Positions 25,073-37,988 of a DNA stretch of 64,000 nt are shown piece after piece. The stretch lies in the IMG/VR virus record IMGVR_UViG_3300019776_000919, positions 64,001-128,000 of that record; one strand, written 5' to 3'. Source of the DNA: a virus. Numbering within the stretch: position 1 is the first letter of the stretch; every line of letters begins with the position of its first letter. The translations under genes and the position numbers were made by a program. A model generated the notes under the pieces. That model ran no database searches. It was given only the letters and a program-made list of their open reading frames with translations, and was not told where the DNA came from.

Positions 25073-25456
25073 TTATTGGAGTTTTATCGGATTTATCTCC
25101 GGGTTGTTGAACACCCAAAGGTCCAACGCTTTTCTCAAAGTGTCACCTTGAATGCGAGTCAGGGACTTGTCCTTGAGAGGGATCAGTTCCAGTGCAATGC
25201 CATAGCTATCAAGGACATGACCGACCTTGATGATCGTCTTGAAGAATTGGTCCAGGCCAACTCCCAGGTCGACGCACAGCATCATTGCCTGGTTGAAGTC
25301 AAGGGTCAATTCTCCCCGCTCGTAACGAGAGTAATGCTTTTCGCTTACTTTCAGCGATCCGCACACCTCGGCTCTGGTGGCTTTGCGAAGCTCACGGTAT
25401 TTCCGAAGCACCAGCCCGACAATTTCGGGAAAAATGACGTAGAGATTGTTGCTCAT
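25073..25456 (-). CDS. XRE-family HTH protein
   Basis: LRKYRE....TRAEV...L.VS...YSRYERGE; GGAGG RBS before MSNN. Confidence 0.8.
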   Translation of the reverse strand: MSNNLYVIFPEIVGLVLRKYRELRKATRAEVCGSLKVSEKHYSRYERGELTLDFNQAMMLCVDLGVGLDQFFKTIIKVGHVLDSYGIALELIPLKDKSLTRIQGDTLRKALDLWVFNNPEINPIKLQ

Positions 25457-25457
25457 T

Positions 25458-25847
25458 TCAACCTCCGAAAGCAATGGCTGTGTGTTCGTTATCCAATTGG
25501 ATAACTTTGTCCTTGATAAGATCTTTCAAGGCTTTACCACGGAGTTGGATTCCGGAAAGTTCCTCTTTCTCCACTTCAACTTCAATCCCCTTGTCGAAAA
25601 GGAAACACTCGACGCCGGACGTAATTTGAAAGAAGTCTTCCATCTGAACGTCCAGATGGGTGAGCGTCAGGTAGAGATTGGTGACGCTCATCGGTACTTC
25701 ACCAGTTTCGTAGCGGGAGTAAGTAGAGACCGAAACCTTCGTTTCGGCGGCTACTCCGGTCTGAAGGAGATTTCTCCGTTTGCGGAGCTGCTCGATAATA
25801 GTGCCGACGAGAACGTCGTACGTACAGAAAACTTCGGTCATTTGCAT
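25458..25847 (-). CDS. XRE-family HTH protein (paralog of neighbour)
   Basis: LRKRRNLLQTGVAAETKVSVSTYSRYETGE. Confidence 0.82.
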   Translation of the reverse strand: MQMTEVFCTYDVLVGTIIEQLRKRRNLLQTGVAAETKVSVSTYSRYETGEVPMSVTNLYLTLTHLDVQMEDFFQITSGVECFLFDKGIEVEVEKEELSGIQLRGKALKDLIKDKVIQLDNEHTAIAFGG

Positions 25848-25923
25848 ACCCTCATATGCGGTTTAGAAGGAATATCCCTTCATACTATTCTTATACCATA
25901 TTGCAATGTAAGAATTGACTAAA
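25842..25923. repeat. 82-bp promoter/RBS cassette, copy 2
   Basis: Near-identical to 24332-24413. Confidence 0.9.
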
Positions 25924-25928
25924 GTAAG

Positions 25929-25955
25929 CTAAAAACAAGGGGTTTAGCCTTGTTT
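25929..25955 (-). terminator. intrinsic terminator after the structured RNA
   Basis: AAACAAGG-loop-CCTTGTTTTTAG on the minus strand. Confidence 0.65.
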
Positions 25956-26446
25956 GCTGCCGTTAGGCAGATCGTGAAGAACCCTTGCAACCCTAGGGAT
26001 GGTTAGTCTTAAGTCGAAAAGTCGGAACGCAGGTAGTCGGTAAATCGGATAATCGAAACGTCTGAATTCGGAAATTCGGAGTACCGATAATCCACCCAGT
26101 TATAGCCAGGCGGATGTGTTGTTTCCAATAAATAAGGTTTGCTTTACCGATGCAAATTTGGCACCTAACGATGGTGCCCCGACAATGTAGCTGCGCAACT
26201 ACTCGTGATAGGCTCACGGTGGCCTTCCTAGTCGCATTGCAAAGGTTCTTTTTATTAAGTATTACACGTATATATAGAATGTACAGCCAATAAGGCGAAC
26301 TTCTTAGCGCTACCTAAGTTTCATGCTTCTTATTATAACTAATACATTCCTCAACTAGATGGAGTCCCTACGCAGGCTCTGTCCTTTTCAGGGAGCGTAA
26401 GTATCCATTACGTGAATACTTAATTCACGATCTGCCTAACGGCAGC
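25956..26446 (-). ncRNA. ~490-nt structured RNA with short tandem repeats, directly 3' of the DIP1984-like gene
   Basis: Perfect 23-bp terminal inverted repeat (25956-25978/26424-26446), two nested long stems, several hairpins, ~11 repeats of 7-8 nt ending mostly in YCGA. Confidence 0.75.
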
Positions 26447-26456
26447 TGTTTCAAGG

Positions 26457-27146
26457 TTAGTTGAAACGAACGGTCAGCGGGATTGCTGCATACTCCGGCT
26501 GGATCGGAATGTAGATCGTATTGACCTGTTCCAGATTCAGGTTGAGTTCAATGGCCCAGTTTGCCTGTTGGATTGCAGCGTCCGCTTCACGCAGGCAGTC
26601 CGAAGCAAAGCGCAAGGCCTTGACGGCACCGATCACGTCGAACGGCGTGTAGGTGAAATTCCAAACGTCTTCTGAACCACCCTCCTCTCCGGGTCGGGTA
26701 ATCCGGCCGGATTGAGGGACACGGCTGATGCCAACCACCTGCTCACCGCTGTTGGGACGGGAGGTCATTTCCGTCAACAGACGGACCTTGATCTGCAGCT
26801 TCTTGCGCAAGAGCAGCAGCTGACCCAGGGTGATCGAAACCTTGTTCTGATTCGGAGTTTCAGGGTAGCTGTTCGAAAGCAGGTATTCGGGGACCTGCAG
26901 GGTCGTCGAGGCGTTGGCCGTTTGGATGGCCAGATCCAGGGCCGTGATTGCGTTCAAGATGTAGTCTTGAGAACGCAGGGCGCTTTCAACGGTCTCGACG
27001 TGAACTCGCTGAAAAACTTCAGCGGTAACGTTTGCCCCGAGGGCGGTGCTGATCCTCTGCGGCTTCGGCGTCAGGTGAGCCGTGCTCAGCATCGTGACCT
27101 TCACGTTCATTTCCTTGCGTATGGTCAAAGCTTCAGCGAGTTTCAT
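26457..27146 (-). CDS. DIP1984/DUF6847-like coiled-coil protein
   Basis: MKLAEAL..R start and internally duplicated halves (ITLGQLLLLRKKL; LDLAIQTANA / ADAAIQQANW). Confidence 0.78.
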   Translation of the reverse strand: MKLAEALTIRKEMNVKVTMLSTAHLTPKPQRISTALGANVTAEVFQRVHVETVESALRSQDYILNAITALDLAIQTANASTTLQVPEYLLSNSYPETPNQNKVSITLGQLLLLRKKLQIKVRLLTEMTSRPNSGEQVVGISRVPQSGRITRPGEEGGSEDVWNFTYTPFDVIGAVKALRFASDCLREADAAIQQANWAIELNLNLEQVNTIYIPIQPEYAAIPLTVRFN

Positions 27147-27192: not shown

Positions 27193-27711
27193 TTACGACC
27201 GCAGGCGTTTCATGCATCGATCAAGTGCTTCTCCATCGATAACCCCTATGGAGAAGAAATCCTTGGGGTCAAGGGTTAGTGACCACCGATCTTGGCAATC
27301 CATTGTGGTTGCCGTGAAAGGGACGGTATTGATCACCACCACGAAAGGGTAACTTCCTTTTGAACCACGGATCATTTCACCACCAAATTTCTTGACGATG
27401 TCACCGACCTTCAAGGTGACTCCCGTCCTGACCGTCTCTTTACGGACTTCAGGGGTGGGCGAAGTCATTCGAGGTATCAACGGCTCCGCAATCAGCGGTT
27501 GAAAACCCAACCCAACTTGCAGGGTAGGGATTTCTTGCGTTGCCGATTTTTTGGTTTCCACCTGAATCAACTTGGGACCCGAATCTTGTTTCGGCAATTG
27601 ATTCGGCATCCGGAAAGGAGGAGCTGATTTTTCAATCGGCAAATTTCCAATCCCCGTTACCAACGAAGGAGGAGTGGTTTGAATCTGGAAATCAGACATA
27701 GCGTGTAACAC
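27193..27711 (-). CDS. hypothetical protein
   Basis: Pro-rich N-terminus with compact C-terminal domain. Confidence 0.6.
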   Translation of the reverse strand: MLHAMSDFQIQTTPPSLVTGIGNLPIEKSAPPFRMPNQLPKQDSGPKLIQVETKKSATQEIPTLQVGLGFQPLIAEPLIPRMTSPTPEVRKETVRTGVTLKVGDIVKKFGGEMIRGSKGSYPFVVVINTVPFTATTMDCQDRWSLTLDPKDFFSIGVIDGEALDRCMKRLRS

Positions 27712-27731: not shown

Positions 27732-28280
27732 TGGTAGGCCGTGTTGGATTCGAACCAACGACCAAAGGATTCGTACCACTTCGACTTTCGCCGCCGTCTT
27801 TCGACGTTCGTGGTCTGGACTATGTCTTGACCATACTACCGTCGCAGGTTAGGTCCGTGCTGTTTAGTCTCTACACCTTTCGCCTTAGGGGAGGCGACTT
27901 GGCTCGGCATTAGCTTGGAATTGTATGAACACGTCAGGAGTTCAGGAAAGGGCGCACCACAATCCTTCAGTCCATGATCACTATTCATGCCCTTCTTTAG
28001 CTTTCGCCGAATTTAACACGATTCATCCCAAATCTCACAGTAGTTCGCATTGCATCGGATTAACCTATCCTCTGAGGGGAGGATGATTGAATTATGCCTT
28101 GTGAGCATATCAATTTATTTGCAATGTTACTATACCGGCTTTTGATTTAGTTTATACGCCTTTCGGTTGAGTCGTTACGCCATCCGGGCTGATGACTACC
28201 GCTCATTTTTCGTAGATGCACAATACTGAAAATGAGATTTACTATGAGTCCTCTGCTCTAACCATCTGAGCTAACGGCCC
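27732..28280 (-). tRNA. tRNA-Ile2(CAT) interrupted by a group I intron
   Basis: 5' exon 28280-28244 (GGGCCGTTAGCTCAG...GGACTCAT), 3' exon 27771-27732 (AATCCTTTGGTCGTTGGTTCGAATCCAACACGGCCTACCA). Confidence 0.9.
27772..28243 (-). mobile_element. group I intron (472 nt) with a structured ~195-nt P1-loop insertion
   Basis: P1 CTCAT^AGTA/TACTGTGAG with U.G at the splice site; P AATTCGGCGAAAG, Q AATGCCGAGC, R GTAGAGACTA, S AAGACATAGTCC; terminal G. Confidence 0.88.
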
Positions 28281-28522
28281 ACTGCCAACTTTTTAAAGCA
28301 TAAAGCAATGTACAGATTTCTCTGTACTATTCTTATACCATGTTGTAATACGATTATTGAATTACTAAAGAGATCTCAGTTTGTATTTGTCATTCCTTCG
28401 GTATACAGTCTCTAACCACACCCAATGCACAACGTCTTCATTGTATTGATTTTGAGTAGTGACTAAAACCGGATACCAAGCAAACCAATTCTTCCATCCG
28501 TGGTCAGGTATGATTCTGATTC

Positions 28523-37914: not shown

Positions 37915-37988
37915 AAGGTGCCCCTCCTTTGAGGCACGGTACTCTTACAAAGCAAGGCTCCTTGCGAACAAGGATCTTGGGAGGGGCA

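What the first reader, a model, noticed from the sequence alone, without database searches (positions are those of the whole stretch)
25929..27146. DIP1984-like coiled-coil gene coupled to a ~490-nt structured RNA with ~11 short tandem repeats: candidate RNA-protein system
Seen: 10 nt after the stop codon an RNA begins that is closed by a perfect 23-bp stem (GCTGCCGTTAGGCAGATCGTGAA, 25956-25978/26424-26446). It has two more long stems (25977-26002/26222-26250 and 26254-26270/26409-26424) forming a three-way junction, at least four small hairpins, and then a terminator. One domain holds an apparently unpaired tract (26093-26004, minus) of 7-8-nt units: TTATCGG TACTCCGA ATTTCCGA ATTCAGA CGTTTCGA TTATCCGA TTTACCGA CTACCTG CGTTCCGA CTTTTCGA CTTAAGA. 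Known: DIP1984/DUF6847 proteins are internally duplicated coiled-coil proteins without a settled function, and oligomers that read one short RNA repeat per subunit exist (TRAP; CsrA sponges). Inference: the protein oligomerises on this repeat tract to form a dedicated RNP, acting as scaffold, antitoxin-like partner or sponge.
Basis: partly seen in the sequence, partly recalled or inferred. Interest (0 to 1): 0.9.

Follow-up and report, generated by a model that had tools for sequence, protein, structure and literature searches.

The report
Phage repeat-tract RNA partnering DUF6847 protein
Right behind a small gene of unknown function, this 170-kb phage encodes a conserved folded RNA with a row of about ten evenly spaced 7-8-base units; gene and RNA stay together in every relative examined and match no catalogued RNA family, so they are probably two halves of an undescribed protein-RNA particle whose job is still unknown.

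Summary
The 23-bp perfect stem, the inner stems, the hairpins, the terminator and the 7-8-nt repeat tract are all present on the minus strand (fold z = -9.6).

It is a ~275-nt core (25977-26250). The 23-bp outer stem and the 170-nt domain A were found in no relative.

The core recurs on the same strand downstream of all 11 metagenomic homologues of the protein for which DNA was available. It also recurs after half-size relatives in ~40-kb phages, some of them in a different genomic context. Seventeen of 20 tested base pairs show compensatory changes. Rfam 15 has no match.

In the short-protein phages the RNA encloses a tRNA, which is tRNA-Ile in four distinct loci.

One hairpin is a complete palindrome in every member, which hints at RNA-RNA pairing.

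The protein has the DIP1984 (PDB 3KDQ) fold, is an internal duplication and is predicted to form a homodimer. Actinobacterial DIP1984 genes also carry a 7-nt periodic tract downstream.

Best reading: a dedicated ribonucleoprotein in which protein units sit on the phased repeats. Binding and function are not shown.

The closest functional analogue is the 2026 VIPR system, but this is not a member of it. This scan has noted the same gene-RNA pairing before on at least eight other genomes.

The parts
26457..27146 (-). Gene for a 229-aa DIP1984/DUF6847-fold protein (P0001). It is an internal duplication of a ~100-aa unit and is predicted to form a homodimer.
   Evidence: ORF. Pfam DUF6847 23.7 bits, below the cut-off of 27. 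NF038048 31.1 bits, below the cut-off of 70. AlphaFold2 pLDDT 83.5. Top PDB hit 3kdq. Both halves align to the 106-aa relative. Dimer ipSAE 0.75 against a best control of 0.00.
25977..26250 (-). Conserved RNA core. It comprises closing stem P1, the internal loop AUGCGA, P2, hairpins P3-P5, variable hairpins P6-P7, the repeat tract and the CUAACCA motif.
   Evidence: A homologous core lies downstream of every protein homologue. Covariation.
26237..26250 (-). P1 5' arm. It pairs with 25977-25990.
   Evidence: P1 is 13-27 bp with unrelated sequences in the relatives.
25977..25990 (-). P1 3' arm.
26227..26231 (-). P2 5' arm (CUAGG). It pairs with 25993-25997 (CCUAG).
   Evidence: P2 was found in 10 of 10 members, each with a different sequence.
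26160..26237 (-). Conserved 5' domain, containing P3 (26204-26218), the palindromic hairpin P4 (26187-26202) and P5 (26160-26178).
   Evidence: Covariance model R1 scores 83.4 bits here. Seventeen of 20 pairs are compensatory and 0 of 500 shuffles reach the observed values. P4 is a palindrome in all members.
26007..26090 (-). Repeat tract of about 10-11 units of 7-8 nt, most ending in CCGA, UCGA or AGA.
   Evidence: The tract is conserved at 58-74% identity between members.
26000..26006 (-). CUAACCA motif at the 3' end of the tract. It may form a pseudoknot with the P5 loop (GUUAG/CUAAC).
   Evidence: The TA[AT]CCA form is present in all 10 metagenomic members; several short-protein loci have variants. 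Pseudoknot pairing is unique and supported in 5 of 10 members.
26254..26423 (-). Domain A, a ~170-nt arm seen only in this phage.
   Evidence: It folds as a separate arm. It has no convincing counterpart in relatives and no Rfam or tRNA hit.
26424..26446 (-). 5' arm of the 23-bp perfect outer stem, specific to this phage. It is a probable double-stranded RNA processing site (inference).
   Evidence: Absent from the relatives. No other copy in the genome.
25956..25978 (-). 3' arm of the outer stem. It contains a local hairpin that has a counterpart in L004.
25925..25955 (-). Intrinsic-terminator-like hairpin (AAACAAGG / CCUUGUUU) followed by a U-rich tail.
   Evidence: Equivalent terminators follow the RNA in L004, L184 and L181.
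25883..25898 (-). Next promoter-like motif (TGGTATAAGAATAGTA). It marks the end of the transcription unit.
   Evidence: 11 matches, all on the minus strand, against 0.12 expected.
28325..28340 (-). Promoter-like motif at the start of the unit that holds tRNA(CAU) with its intron, the 172-aa gene, the DIP1984-like gene and the RNA.
   Evidence: No further copy of the motif lies between 28325 and 25898.
27193..27711 (-). Upstream 172-aa gene. It is conserved next to the module in five of the large-phage loci.
   Evidence: BLASTP among loci. phrog_17597, function unknown.

Best explanation
The region encodes a real, uncatalogued structured non-coding RNA.

**Transcription unit.** The RNA is made as the 3' end of one unit: a promoter-like motif at 28325-28340, a tRNA(CAU) carrying a group I intron, a 172-aa gene, the DIP1984-fold gene, the RNA, and a terminator at 25933-25955.

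**Conserved core (25977-26250).** A long closing stem encloses four parts: a three-hairpin 5' domain, a variable insert (plain hairpins here, a tRNA in the short-protein phages), a tract of about ten 7-8-nt units that each end in (C)CGA or AGA, and a CUAACCA motif.

**Proposed function.** I read the RNA as the cognate partner of the adjacent DIP1984/DUF6847-fold protein. Symmetric protein units (a dimer of the duplicated protein) would dock on the phased anchors of the tract and build a defined ribonucleoprotein. The fully palindromic hairpin P4 may pair two RNAs together.

**Shown.** The RNA family, its structure, the strand, the transcription-unit boundaries as promoter-like and terminator-like motifs, and the strict gene-RNA linkage.

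**Inferred.** Physical binding, stoichiometry, RNA dimerisation, processing at the long stem, and the cellular target. A link to tRNA-Ile decoding or to nucleic-acid recognition is possible but unproven.
For: **RNA family and structure**
- The fold is far more stable than shuffles, z = -9.6.
- Ten distinct homologous cores align (A2). RNAalifold finds compensatory changes in 22 of 29 pairs.
- P2, P3, P4 and P5 form in 10 of 10 members with different sequences.
- On the model-fitted alignment, 17 of 20 pairs have double changes. 77.8% of cells are paired, against 34-48% when the partner column is slid. No shuffle of 500 reaches the observed values.
- Covariance model R1 finds untrained members at L191 (42 bits), L212/L213 (48.9), L208/L209 (38.3) and L205 (32.3).

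**Linkage to the protein gene**
- All 11 metagenomic homologues with DNA (22-41% identity) carry the RNA downstream on the same strand.
- Half-size DUF6847 relatives in ~40-kb phages carry it starting 2-17 nt after their stop codon. In L208 the cassette lies between the terminase and portal genes.
- All six actinobacterial DIP1984 loci tested have a 7-nt periodic tract starting 117-143 nt after the stop.

**Strand and transcription unit**
- The embedded tRNAs are on the same strand.
- Terminators follow the RNA.
- The promoter-like motif brackets the unit.

**Repeat tract**
- Periodicity is present in every member.
- Tract sequence is conserved at 58-74% identity.
- In L190 the unit end GA is replaced by GC throughout: 10 GC against 3 GA, where other members have 5-14 GA and 1-6 GC. 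Such a concerted change suggests that a single reader recognises all units.

**Protein**
- It has the 3kdq fold.
- The homodimer model scores 0.75, with a best control of 0.00. Calibration: 20 of 30 solved homo-pairs reach the mark, against 1 of 23 proteins solved as single chains. The runs share at least 88% of contacts, and partner pLDDT is at least 85.
Against: - There is no direct evidence of binding.
- The protein family has a near-neutral pI of 6.8-9.0 and no recognised RNA-binding domain.
- Adjacency could reflect co-transcription alone.
- The tract is not clearly less paired than the rest in thermodynamic models.
- Unit number and spacing are looser in the short-protein clade.
- Because 3kdq is a solved multi-chain entry of the same fold, the dimer pass may partly reflect that likeness.
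Confidence: 0.55

Rival explanations
1. The RNA acts on its own. It could be an RNA-only quaternary assembly, or a sponge or decoy for a host factor such as a nuclease, Rho or a tRNA-binding enzyme. Under this reading the DUF6847 gene is merely co-transcribed.
For: P4 is a complete palindrome, including its four central bases, in every member. The centres include GCGC, GUAC, ACGU, GGCC and UGCA, and CCGG, CUGG and GUGC by eye in other loci. This points to RNA-RNA pairing of the kind seen in homo-oligomeric GOLLD, ROOL and OLE (PMC12286853). The element lies in a tRNA island, as GOLLD often does. The protein has no RNA-binding signature.
Against: Linkage to the gene holds across different genomic contexts, two protein architectures, and both bacteria and phages. 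In the short-protein clade the RNA starts 2-17 nt after the stop codon. That is hard to explain without a shared function.
Confidence: 0.2
2. The element is a cis-acting 3' untranslated region. The long stems would protect the mRNA or direct its processing, for example by RNase III, and the RNA would have no function in trans.
For: The RNA always lies between the stop codon and a terminator. The closing stems are long and near-perfect: 23 bp here, and about 30 bp in L004.
Against: A 275-nt multi-domain fold with conserved loop sequences, a phased repeat tract and, in relatives, an embedded tRNA is far more than stabilisation would need. In L190 two ORFs separate the gene from the RNA.
Confidence: 0.1
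3. The pair is a type III toxin-antitoxin-like system. The repeat RNA would neutralise the adjacent protein, which would be toxic when free.
For: It is a protein plus a repeat RNA, encoded by phages and mobile elements.
Against: The units are 7-8 nt, not ~36 nt. The RNA lies downstream of the gene, not upstream behind a terminator. The protein fold is a helical bundle with no ToxN-like hit.
Confidence: 0.05
4. The 491-bp segment is a miniature inverted-repeat transposable element (MITE-like), with 23-bp terminal inverted repeats and a 5-bp target duplication (TGTTT).
For: The inverted repeats are perfect. TGTTT flanks both ends, at 25951-25955 and 26447-26451.
Against: There is a single copy in the genome. 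The repeat sequence was not found in the viral collection. The core inside the repeats is orthologous to RNAs at the same position in relatives that lack the repeats. The 3' arm and the AAACAAGG flank have counterparts in L004. The outer stem therefore looks like a local inverted duplication.
Confidence: 0.02

Closest known systems
VIPR systems (Vipr protein plus vrRNA; bioRxiv 10.64898/2026.04.26.720920 and 10.64898/2026.04.26.720927)
   Same: Both are mostly phage-encoded minimal loci with a small protein gene next to a non-coding RNA. In both, the RNA has about ten short-period tandem units with a fixed anchor, joined to a structured invariant part. In VIPR, protein protomers polymerise along the repeats.
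   Different: Vipr is a RAMP/RRM-fold protein, whereas this protein has the helical 3kdq fold. VIPR units are 5 nt (GGY/NN), whereas these are 7-8 nt ending in CCGA or AGA. The VIPR NN positions are hypervariable guides, whereas this tract is conserved between relatives. The vrRNA is ~100 nt, whereas this core is ~275 nt and closed by a long stem.
TRAP with the trp leader RNA (established knowledge)
   Same: An oligomer reads one short triplet per subunit along about 11 phased repeats.
   Different: TRAP binds GAG or UAG triplets spaced by 2-3 nt and is a beta-sandwich 11-mer that regulates attenuation. Here the period is 7-8 nt, the protein is helical, and the RNA is a closed multi-domain molecule at the 3' end of an operon.
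Rsr (Ro60) with Y RNA / YrlA (Rfam RF02553)
   Same: The non-coding RNA is encoded next to its protein gene. It has a closing stem plus a tRNA-like module. Here the relatives enclose a real tRNA, and the insert in L210 scores 36.5 bits on YrlA.
   Different: There is no Ro60/TROVE gene. There is no YrlA hit in the window, and the scores in relatives fall below the gathering threshold of 69. Y RNAs have no phased repeat tract.
GOLLD and ROOL large phage-associated RNAs (PMC12286853, PMC5737381)
   Same: All are large ornate RNAs of unknown function in phages, often beside tRNA genes. GOLLD and ROOL self-assemble, and the palindromic P4 here hints at the same.
   Different: There is no Rfam match to either. 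Those RNAs have no dedicated adjacent protein gene and no short-period repeat tract.
CsrA/RsmA sponges (CsrB, RsmZ)
   Same: One RNA carries many copies of a short motif.
   Different: Sponge motifs are GGA in hairpin loops. The transcribed strand of this tract has none. No csrA-like gene is nearby.

Membership tests
DIP1984 / DUF6847 protein family (PF20935, NF038048) | Score at or above the curated profile cut-off | tested here: not met
   P0001 scores 23.7 bits on PF20935 (cut-off 27) and 31.1 bits on NF038048 (cut-off 70). The short relatives in L208 and L212 do pass Pfam, at 32-33 bits.
DIP1984 / DUF6847 protein family (PF20935, NF038048) | Fold of the solved member 3KDQ | tested here: met
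   Foldseek's top hit is 3kdq_A, probability 1.00, TM 0.72 normalised to the target. The Atlas structure rows are named 'DIP1984 family' and 'Septicolysin', TM 0.77-0.78.
VIPR (Vipr-vrRNA) | RAMP/RRM-fold Vipr protein | tested here: not met
   The model is a helical bundle with a few short strands. No RAMP appears among the PDB hits.
VIPR (Vipr-vrRNA) | 9-16 tandem 5-nt units, GGY fixed and NN hypervariable | tested here: not met
   The period is 7-8 nt with CCGA or AGA ends. The tract is 58-74% identical between relatives, more conserved than the stems.
VIPR (Vipr-vrRNA) | Protein protomers polymerise along the repeat RNA | not testable with these tools
   Only a homodimer could be modelled.
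TRAP-type attenuation RNA | (G/U)AG triplets with 2-3 nt spacers in a 5' leader, read by an 11-mer TRAP | tested here: not met
   The period and motif differ. The RNA lies 3' of the gene. No TRAP domain was found.
Y RNA / YrlA | Rfam RF02553 at the gathering score, and a neighbouring rsr (Ro60) gene | tested here: not met
   There is no hit in the window. L210 scores 36.5 bits and L187 29.9 bits, both below 69. Neighbouring genes show no TROVE domain.
GOLLD / ROOL | Match to the Rfam covariance models | tested here: not met
   No match at E <= 1 in the window or in relatives.
Type III toxin-antitoxin (ToxIN-like) | Tandem ~34-36-nt antitoxin repeats upstream of a ToxN-fold endoribonuclease gene | tested here: not met
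   The units are 7-8 nt and lie downstream of the gene. There is no ToxN or PADLOC hit.
MITE | Several dispersed copies with the same terminal inverted repeats | tested here: not met
   One copy in the 169,713-bp genome. No match to the repeat in the viral collection.

The most novel reading that the evidence does not exclude
DUF6847 proteins with their heptad/octad-repeat RNAs are a second, evolutionarily unrelated class of 'protein-filament-on-repeat-RNA' machines analogous to VIPR. Protein units would clamp the fixed anchors (CCGA here; other anchors in other clades). The intervening bases would then be presented as a non-contiguous reading head for a conserved nucleic-acid target, possibly one linked to tRNA-Ile. 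The palindromic hairpin would join two such rails.
Probability: 0.12. Interest if true: 0.95.

Novelty: categorically new. Interest (0 to 1): 0.85.

Why it matters
If the pairing is functional, this is a widespread ribonucleoprotein with no described role. It occurs in large and small phages and in Actinomycetota. Earlier notes of this scan, which I did not verify, also report it in gut bacteria, megaplasmids and an archaeon.

Its RNA has an unusual design: a closed scaffold, a slot that can hold a tRNA, and a rail of phased short units. The 2026 discovery of VIPR showed that such rails can encode programmable nucleic-acid recognition. A second, unrelated protein family using a similar layout would widen that principle.

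It would also give a first functional handle on DUF6847/DIP1984, which has had a crystal structure since 2009 (3KDQ) but no known function and is often mislabelled 'septicolysin'.

Tried and rejected
- **Rfam.** No family matched the RNA in the window or in 21 related loci.
- **BLAST.** The element has no match in the phage collection and no second copy in its own genome.
- **Exact-pattern scans.** Scans of the viral, metagenome and genome collections with a conserved 18-mer returned only chance hits. The 69 genome hits are about the number expected by chance, and none carries the adjoining motif. A tract pattern found nothing in the viral collection.
- **Protein searches.** The word-indexed protein search and the first protein-to-locus scan found no relatives. 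The exhaustive search did.
- **A false negative, corrected.** My first test of canonical bacterial DIP1984 loci used model R1 and a GA-chain detector and was negative. That negative was specific to this clade. A motif-free periodicity test found a 7-nt tract in all six loci.
- **Tract against tRNA(CAU).** Complementarity between the tract and the neighbouring tRNA(CAU) is no better than with shuffled tRNA in three of four loci.
- **Pseudoknot.** P5 loop with CUAACCA is supported in only 5 of 10 members.
- **Domain A.** It has no convincing counterpart in relatives.
- **Defence models.** PADLOC gave nothing meaningful.
- **Coding reading.** I did not pursue the 74-aa ORF at 25993-26217. It overlaps covarying helices and a 7-8-nt repeat, which no reading frame fits.
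Full report
**Setting**

The window is bases 64001-128000 of a complete 169,713-bp phage record with direct terminal repeats. It is rich in RNA genes. It holds ten tRNAs and a tmRNA and a group I intron at 27792-28061. Nearly all genes run on the minus strand.

The finding covers a 229-aa ORF at 26457-27146 (minus) and the 609-nt gap between it and the next gene, an XRE-type HTH gene that starts at 25847.

**Observation**

- The arms 26424-26446 and 25956-25978 are 23 nt and perfectly complementary. 25977-25990/26237-26250 (14 bp, one U-G pair) and 26254-26263/26415-26424 (10 bp) form the two inner stems.
- The minus-strand RNA folds at -189 kcal/mol, against -130.8 +/- 6.0 for shuffles, z = -9.6.
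- The tract 26007-26090 has YCGA at spacings of 8, 15, 8, 8, 15 and 8 nt.
- With a simple chain detector it is the longest such array in the whole genome. In about 2 Mb of unrelated control DNA only 1 of 338 strands holds a chain as long.
- A terminator-like hairpin follows at 25933-25955.
- The one weak point is 'unpaired'. Thermodynamic pairing probability in the tract is 0.52, against 0.63 elsewhere.

**Relatives**

The protein has no close relative in the word-indexed search. An exhaustive HMMER search found 11 homologues at 22-41% identity.

I fetched their contigs. Ten distinct loci have a homologous RNA downstream of the gene on the same strand. An eleventh, L191, was cut off 164 nt after the gene and was later found by the covariance model. 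One further homologue has no DNA on hand.

**Shared architecture**

- P1 is a long closing stem of unrelated sequence.
- An internal loop follows (GUGCG on the 5' side).
- P2 is 5-7 bp and differs in all ten members: CUAGG, UCAGGG, CUGGG, UUCAAGU, UCCGG and so on.
- P3 is a hairpin (CGUGA-GCCUA-UCACG here; AGGGA/UCCCU, ACCUG/CAGGU and CCCGU/ACGGG elsewhere).
- P4 and P5 are further hairpins.
- One to four variable hairpins follow.
- Then comes the repeat tract, then CUAACCA.

**Covariation**

- RNAalifold finds compensatory changes in 22 of 29 pairs.
- I built a covariance model of the 5' domain (R1) and realigned 11 members to it.
- On that alignment 17 of 20 pairs have changes on both sides. 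77.8% of cells are paired, against 34-48% when the partner column is slid. No shuffle of 500 reaches the observed values. The alignment was fitted to the model, which favours the structure. The per-sequence helix search does not depend on it and agrees.
- No Rfam 15 family matches in the window or in any relative.

**What is and is not conserved**

The conserved unit is the ~275-nt core, 25977-26250. The 23-bp perfect stem and the 170-nt domain A (26254-26423) occur only in this phage. The spacers of the relatives do not align with them.

L004 has a small hairpin where this phage has the 3' arm, and the same AAACAAGG terminator flank. The outer stem therefore looks like a recent local inverted duplication.

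This, together with the single copy in the genome, argues against the MITE reading, despite the TGTTT flanks.

**A second, independent set of relatives**

A profile scan of the viral collection returned ten loci, eight of them with short (~100-123 aa) relatives.

- The two short proteins tested (L208, L212) pass the Pfam DUF6847 threshold, at 32-33 bits.
- The L208 protein aligns to both halves of P0001. P0001 is therefore an internal duplication.
- Model R1, which was not trained on these loci, hits directly behind the gene in L212/L213, L208/L209 and L205.
- By eye, L206, L207, L210 and L214 have the same layout, with more diverged hairpins.
- In L208 the cassette sits between the large terminase and a P22-type portal gene. 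That is a different context from the tRNA island here.

In the short-protein loci the RNA encloses a tRNA between the 5' domain and the tract. It is tRNA-Ile(GAU) in L206, L208 and L214, tRNA-Ile(AAU) in L212, and a Gln-like tRNA in L205. L210 has a tRNA-like insert that scores 36.5 bits on the YrlA model, below threshold.

**Transcription unit**

The motif TGGTATAAGnATAGTA occurs 11 times in the window, always on the minus strand, against 0.12 expected. Copies lie at 28325-28340 and 25883-25898, with none between.

These motifs bracket one unit, which therefore holds a tRNA with anticodon CAU interrupted by the group I intron, the 172-aa gene, the DIP1984-like gene, the RNA and the terminator. 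An intact tRNA(CAU) lies upstream of the same module in L181, L185 and L187. The recurring proximity to tRNA(CAU) and tRNA-Ile is noted but unexplained.

**The tract**

- Autocorrelation peaks at lags 7-8, 15-16 and 23 in every member. Mean values are 0.39, 0.38 and 0.35, against 0.26 +/- 0.05 for shuffles.
- Many members begin and end the tract with the same three-unit block (ACUCCGA, NUNUCCGA, NUUCAGA).
- In L190 nearly every unit ends in GC instead of GA: 10 GC against 3 GA, where other members have 5-14 GA and 1-6 GC. Such a concerted change suggests that one reader recognises all units.
- The tract is 58-74% identical between members. That is more conserved than the stems and the variable hairpins. 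It speaks against a hypervariable programmable guide.

**Hairpin P4**

P4 is a complete palindrome in every member, including the four central bases that cannot pair within a hairpin. The centres are GCGC, GUAC, ACGU, GGCC and UGCA, and CCGG, CUGG and GUGC by eye in the other loci.

Keeping a self-complementary centre through at least five different sequences is unlikely by chance, roughly 1 in 16 per independent change. It suggests an intermolecular duplex, that is, an RNA dimer. G-U pairs in the stem argue for RNA-level rather than DNA-level pairing. This is inference.

**The protein**

- The AlphaFold2 model (pLDDT 83.5) has 3kdq as its only significant PDB neighbour. 3kdq is the Corynebacterium diphtheriae protein of unknown function. 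TM is 0.72 normalised to the target. The Atlas structure neighbours are labelled DIP1984 or septicolysin.
- The pI is near neutral, and no RNA-binding domain is detected.
- A homodimer is predicted. The score is 0.75, with a best control of 0.00. In the tool's calibration 20 of 30 solved homo-pairs reach the mark, against 1 of 23 proteins solved as single chains. The runs agree in at least 88% of contacts, and partner pLDDT is at least 85. Because 3kdq is a solved multi-chain entry of this fold, part of this may be likeness to it.

**Canonical bacterial DIP1984 genes**

A sample of 301 Actinomycetota genomes gave eight matches above the family cut-off.

Model R1 and the GA-chain detector were negative on these loci. 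After reading earlier notes of this scan, I repeated the test without assuming a motif. In all six loci examined, the best 7-nt periodic window downstream starts 117-143 nt after the stop. Scores are 0.34-0.45, against 0.26-0.29 +/- 0.03 for shuffles. In at least four of the loci a T-arm-like hairpin precedes it.

The pairing of a DUF6847 gene with a downstream short-period repeat RNA is therefore not confined to this phage clade.

**Interpretation**

Strongly supported:
- This is a new structured RNA family.
- It is genetically locked to DUF6847-fold genes.

Likely but unproven:
- The two form a ribonucleoprotein in which symmetric protein units dock on the phased anchors.

Unknown:
- What the particle does.

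**Comparison with known systems**

The closest known mechanism is VIPR. There, a phage RAMP protein polymerises on 9-16 YNNGG units and presents the NN bases as a non-contiguous DNA guide (bioRxiv 10.64898/2026.04.26.720920). The present system fails the membership tests for VIPR on protein fold, period and hypervariability. It also fails those for TRAP, CsrB-type sponges, Y RNA, type III toxin-antitoxin pairs, GOLLD/ROOL and MITEs.

I found no paper that mentions DUF6847 or DIP1984 among the listed results. The two large surveys of structured RNAs that I checked do not mention the family in their main text. Their supplementary catalogues were not searched, so prior listing as an anonymous motif cannot be excluded.

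**Earlier notes of this scan**

The scan has noted the same kind of gene-RNA pair before on at least eight other genomes. I treated those notes as leads only.

Noticed in passing
L206:3403-3477, L208:3430-3505, L212:3407-3480, L214:3433-3508, L205:1586-1673: In the short-protein clade the RNA encloses a complete tRNA between the 5' domain and the repeat tract. It is tRNA-Ile (GAU or AAU) in four loci and Gln-like in one. Release of the tRNA would split the RNA into two halves held together by P1 and P2.
   Followed up: partly
window 27732-28280 (minus): A tRNA with anticodon CAU (Met or Ile2) is interrupted by a group I intron (Rfam 46.2 bits, just under the gathering score of 50). It lies in the same transcription unit as the module. 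An intact tRNA(CAU) lies upstream of the module in L181, L185 and L187.
   Followed up: partly
window, 11 sites including 24373, 24984, 25883, 28325 and 31772 (minus): The promoter-like motif TGGTATAAGnATAGTA occurs 11 times, all on the minus strand, against 0.12 expected. The same motif follows the RNA terminator in L004, L184, L185 and L190.
   Followed up: yes
window 26187-26202 and the equivalent hairpin in all relatives: Hairpin P4 is a full palindrome including its 4-nt centre, with at least five different centre sequences across the family. This suggests RNA-RNA dimerisation.
   Followed up: partly
L190:1926-2228: All repeat units end in GC instead of GA, a concerted change across the tract. 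Two extra ORFs separate the gene from the RNA.
   Followed up: partly
L187:2243-2367 and L210:3436-3495: There are sub-threshold matches to the Y RNA-like YrlA model (29.9 and 36.5 bits, gathering score 69). These are tRNA-like elements beside or inside the module.
   Followed up: no
L193-L197, L199 (Actinomycetota DIP1984 loci), about 90-210 nt after the stop codon: In at least four of the loci a T-arm-like hairpin (for example GGGG-UUCGACU-CCCC) is followed by a 7-nt periodic tract with CAC/GCA-type anchors. Rfam has no match.
   Followed up: partly
window 37936-38267 and L207:1867-2253: Phage-encoded tmRNA genes lie in the same tRNA islands.
   Followed up: no
window 25073-25474 and 25458-25847 (minus): Two adjacent XRE-type HTH genes lie directly downstream of the RNA. 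An HTH gene also follows the RNA in L004-L007.
   Followed up: no
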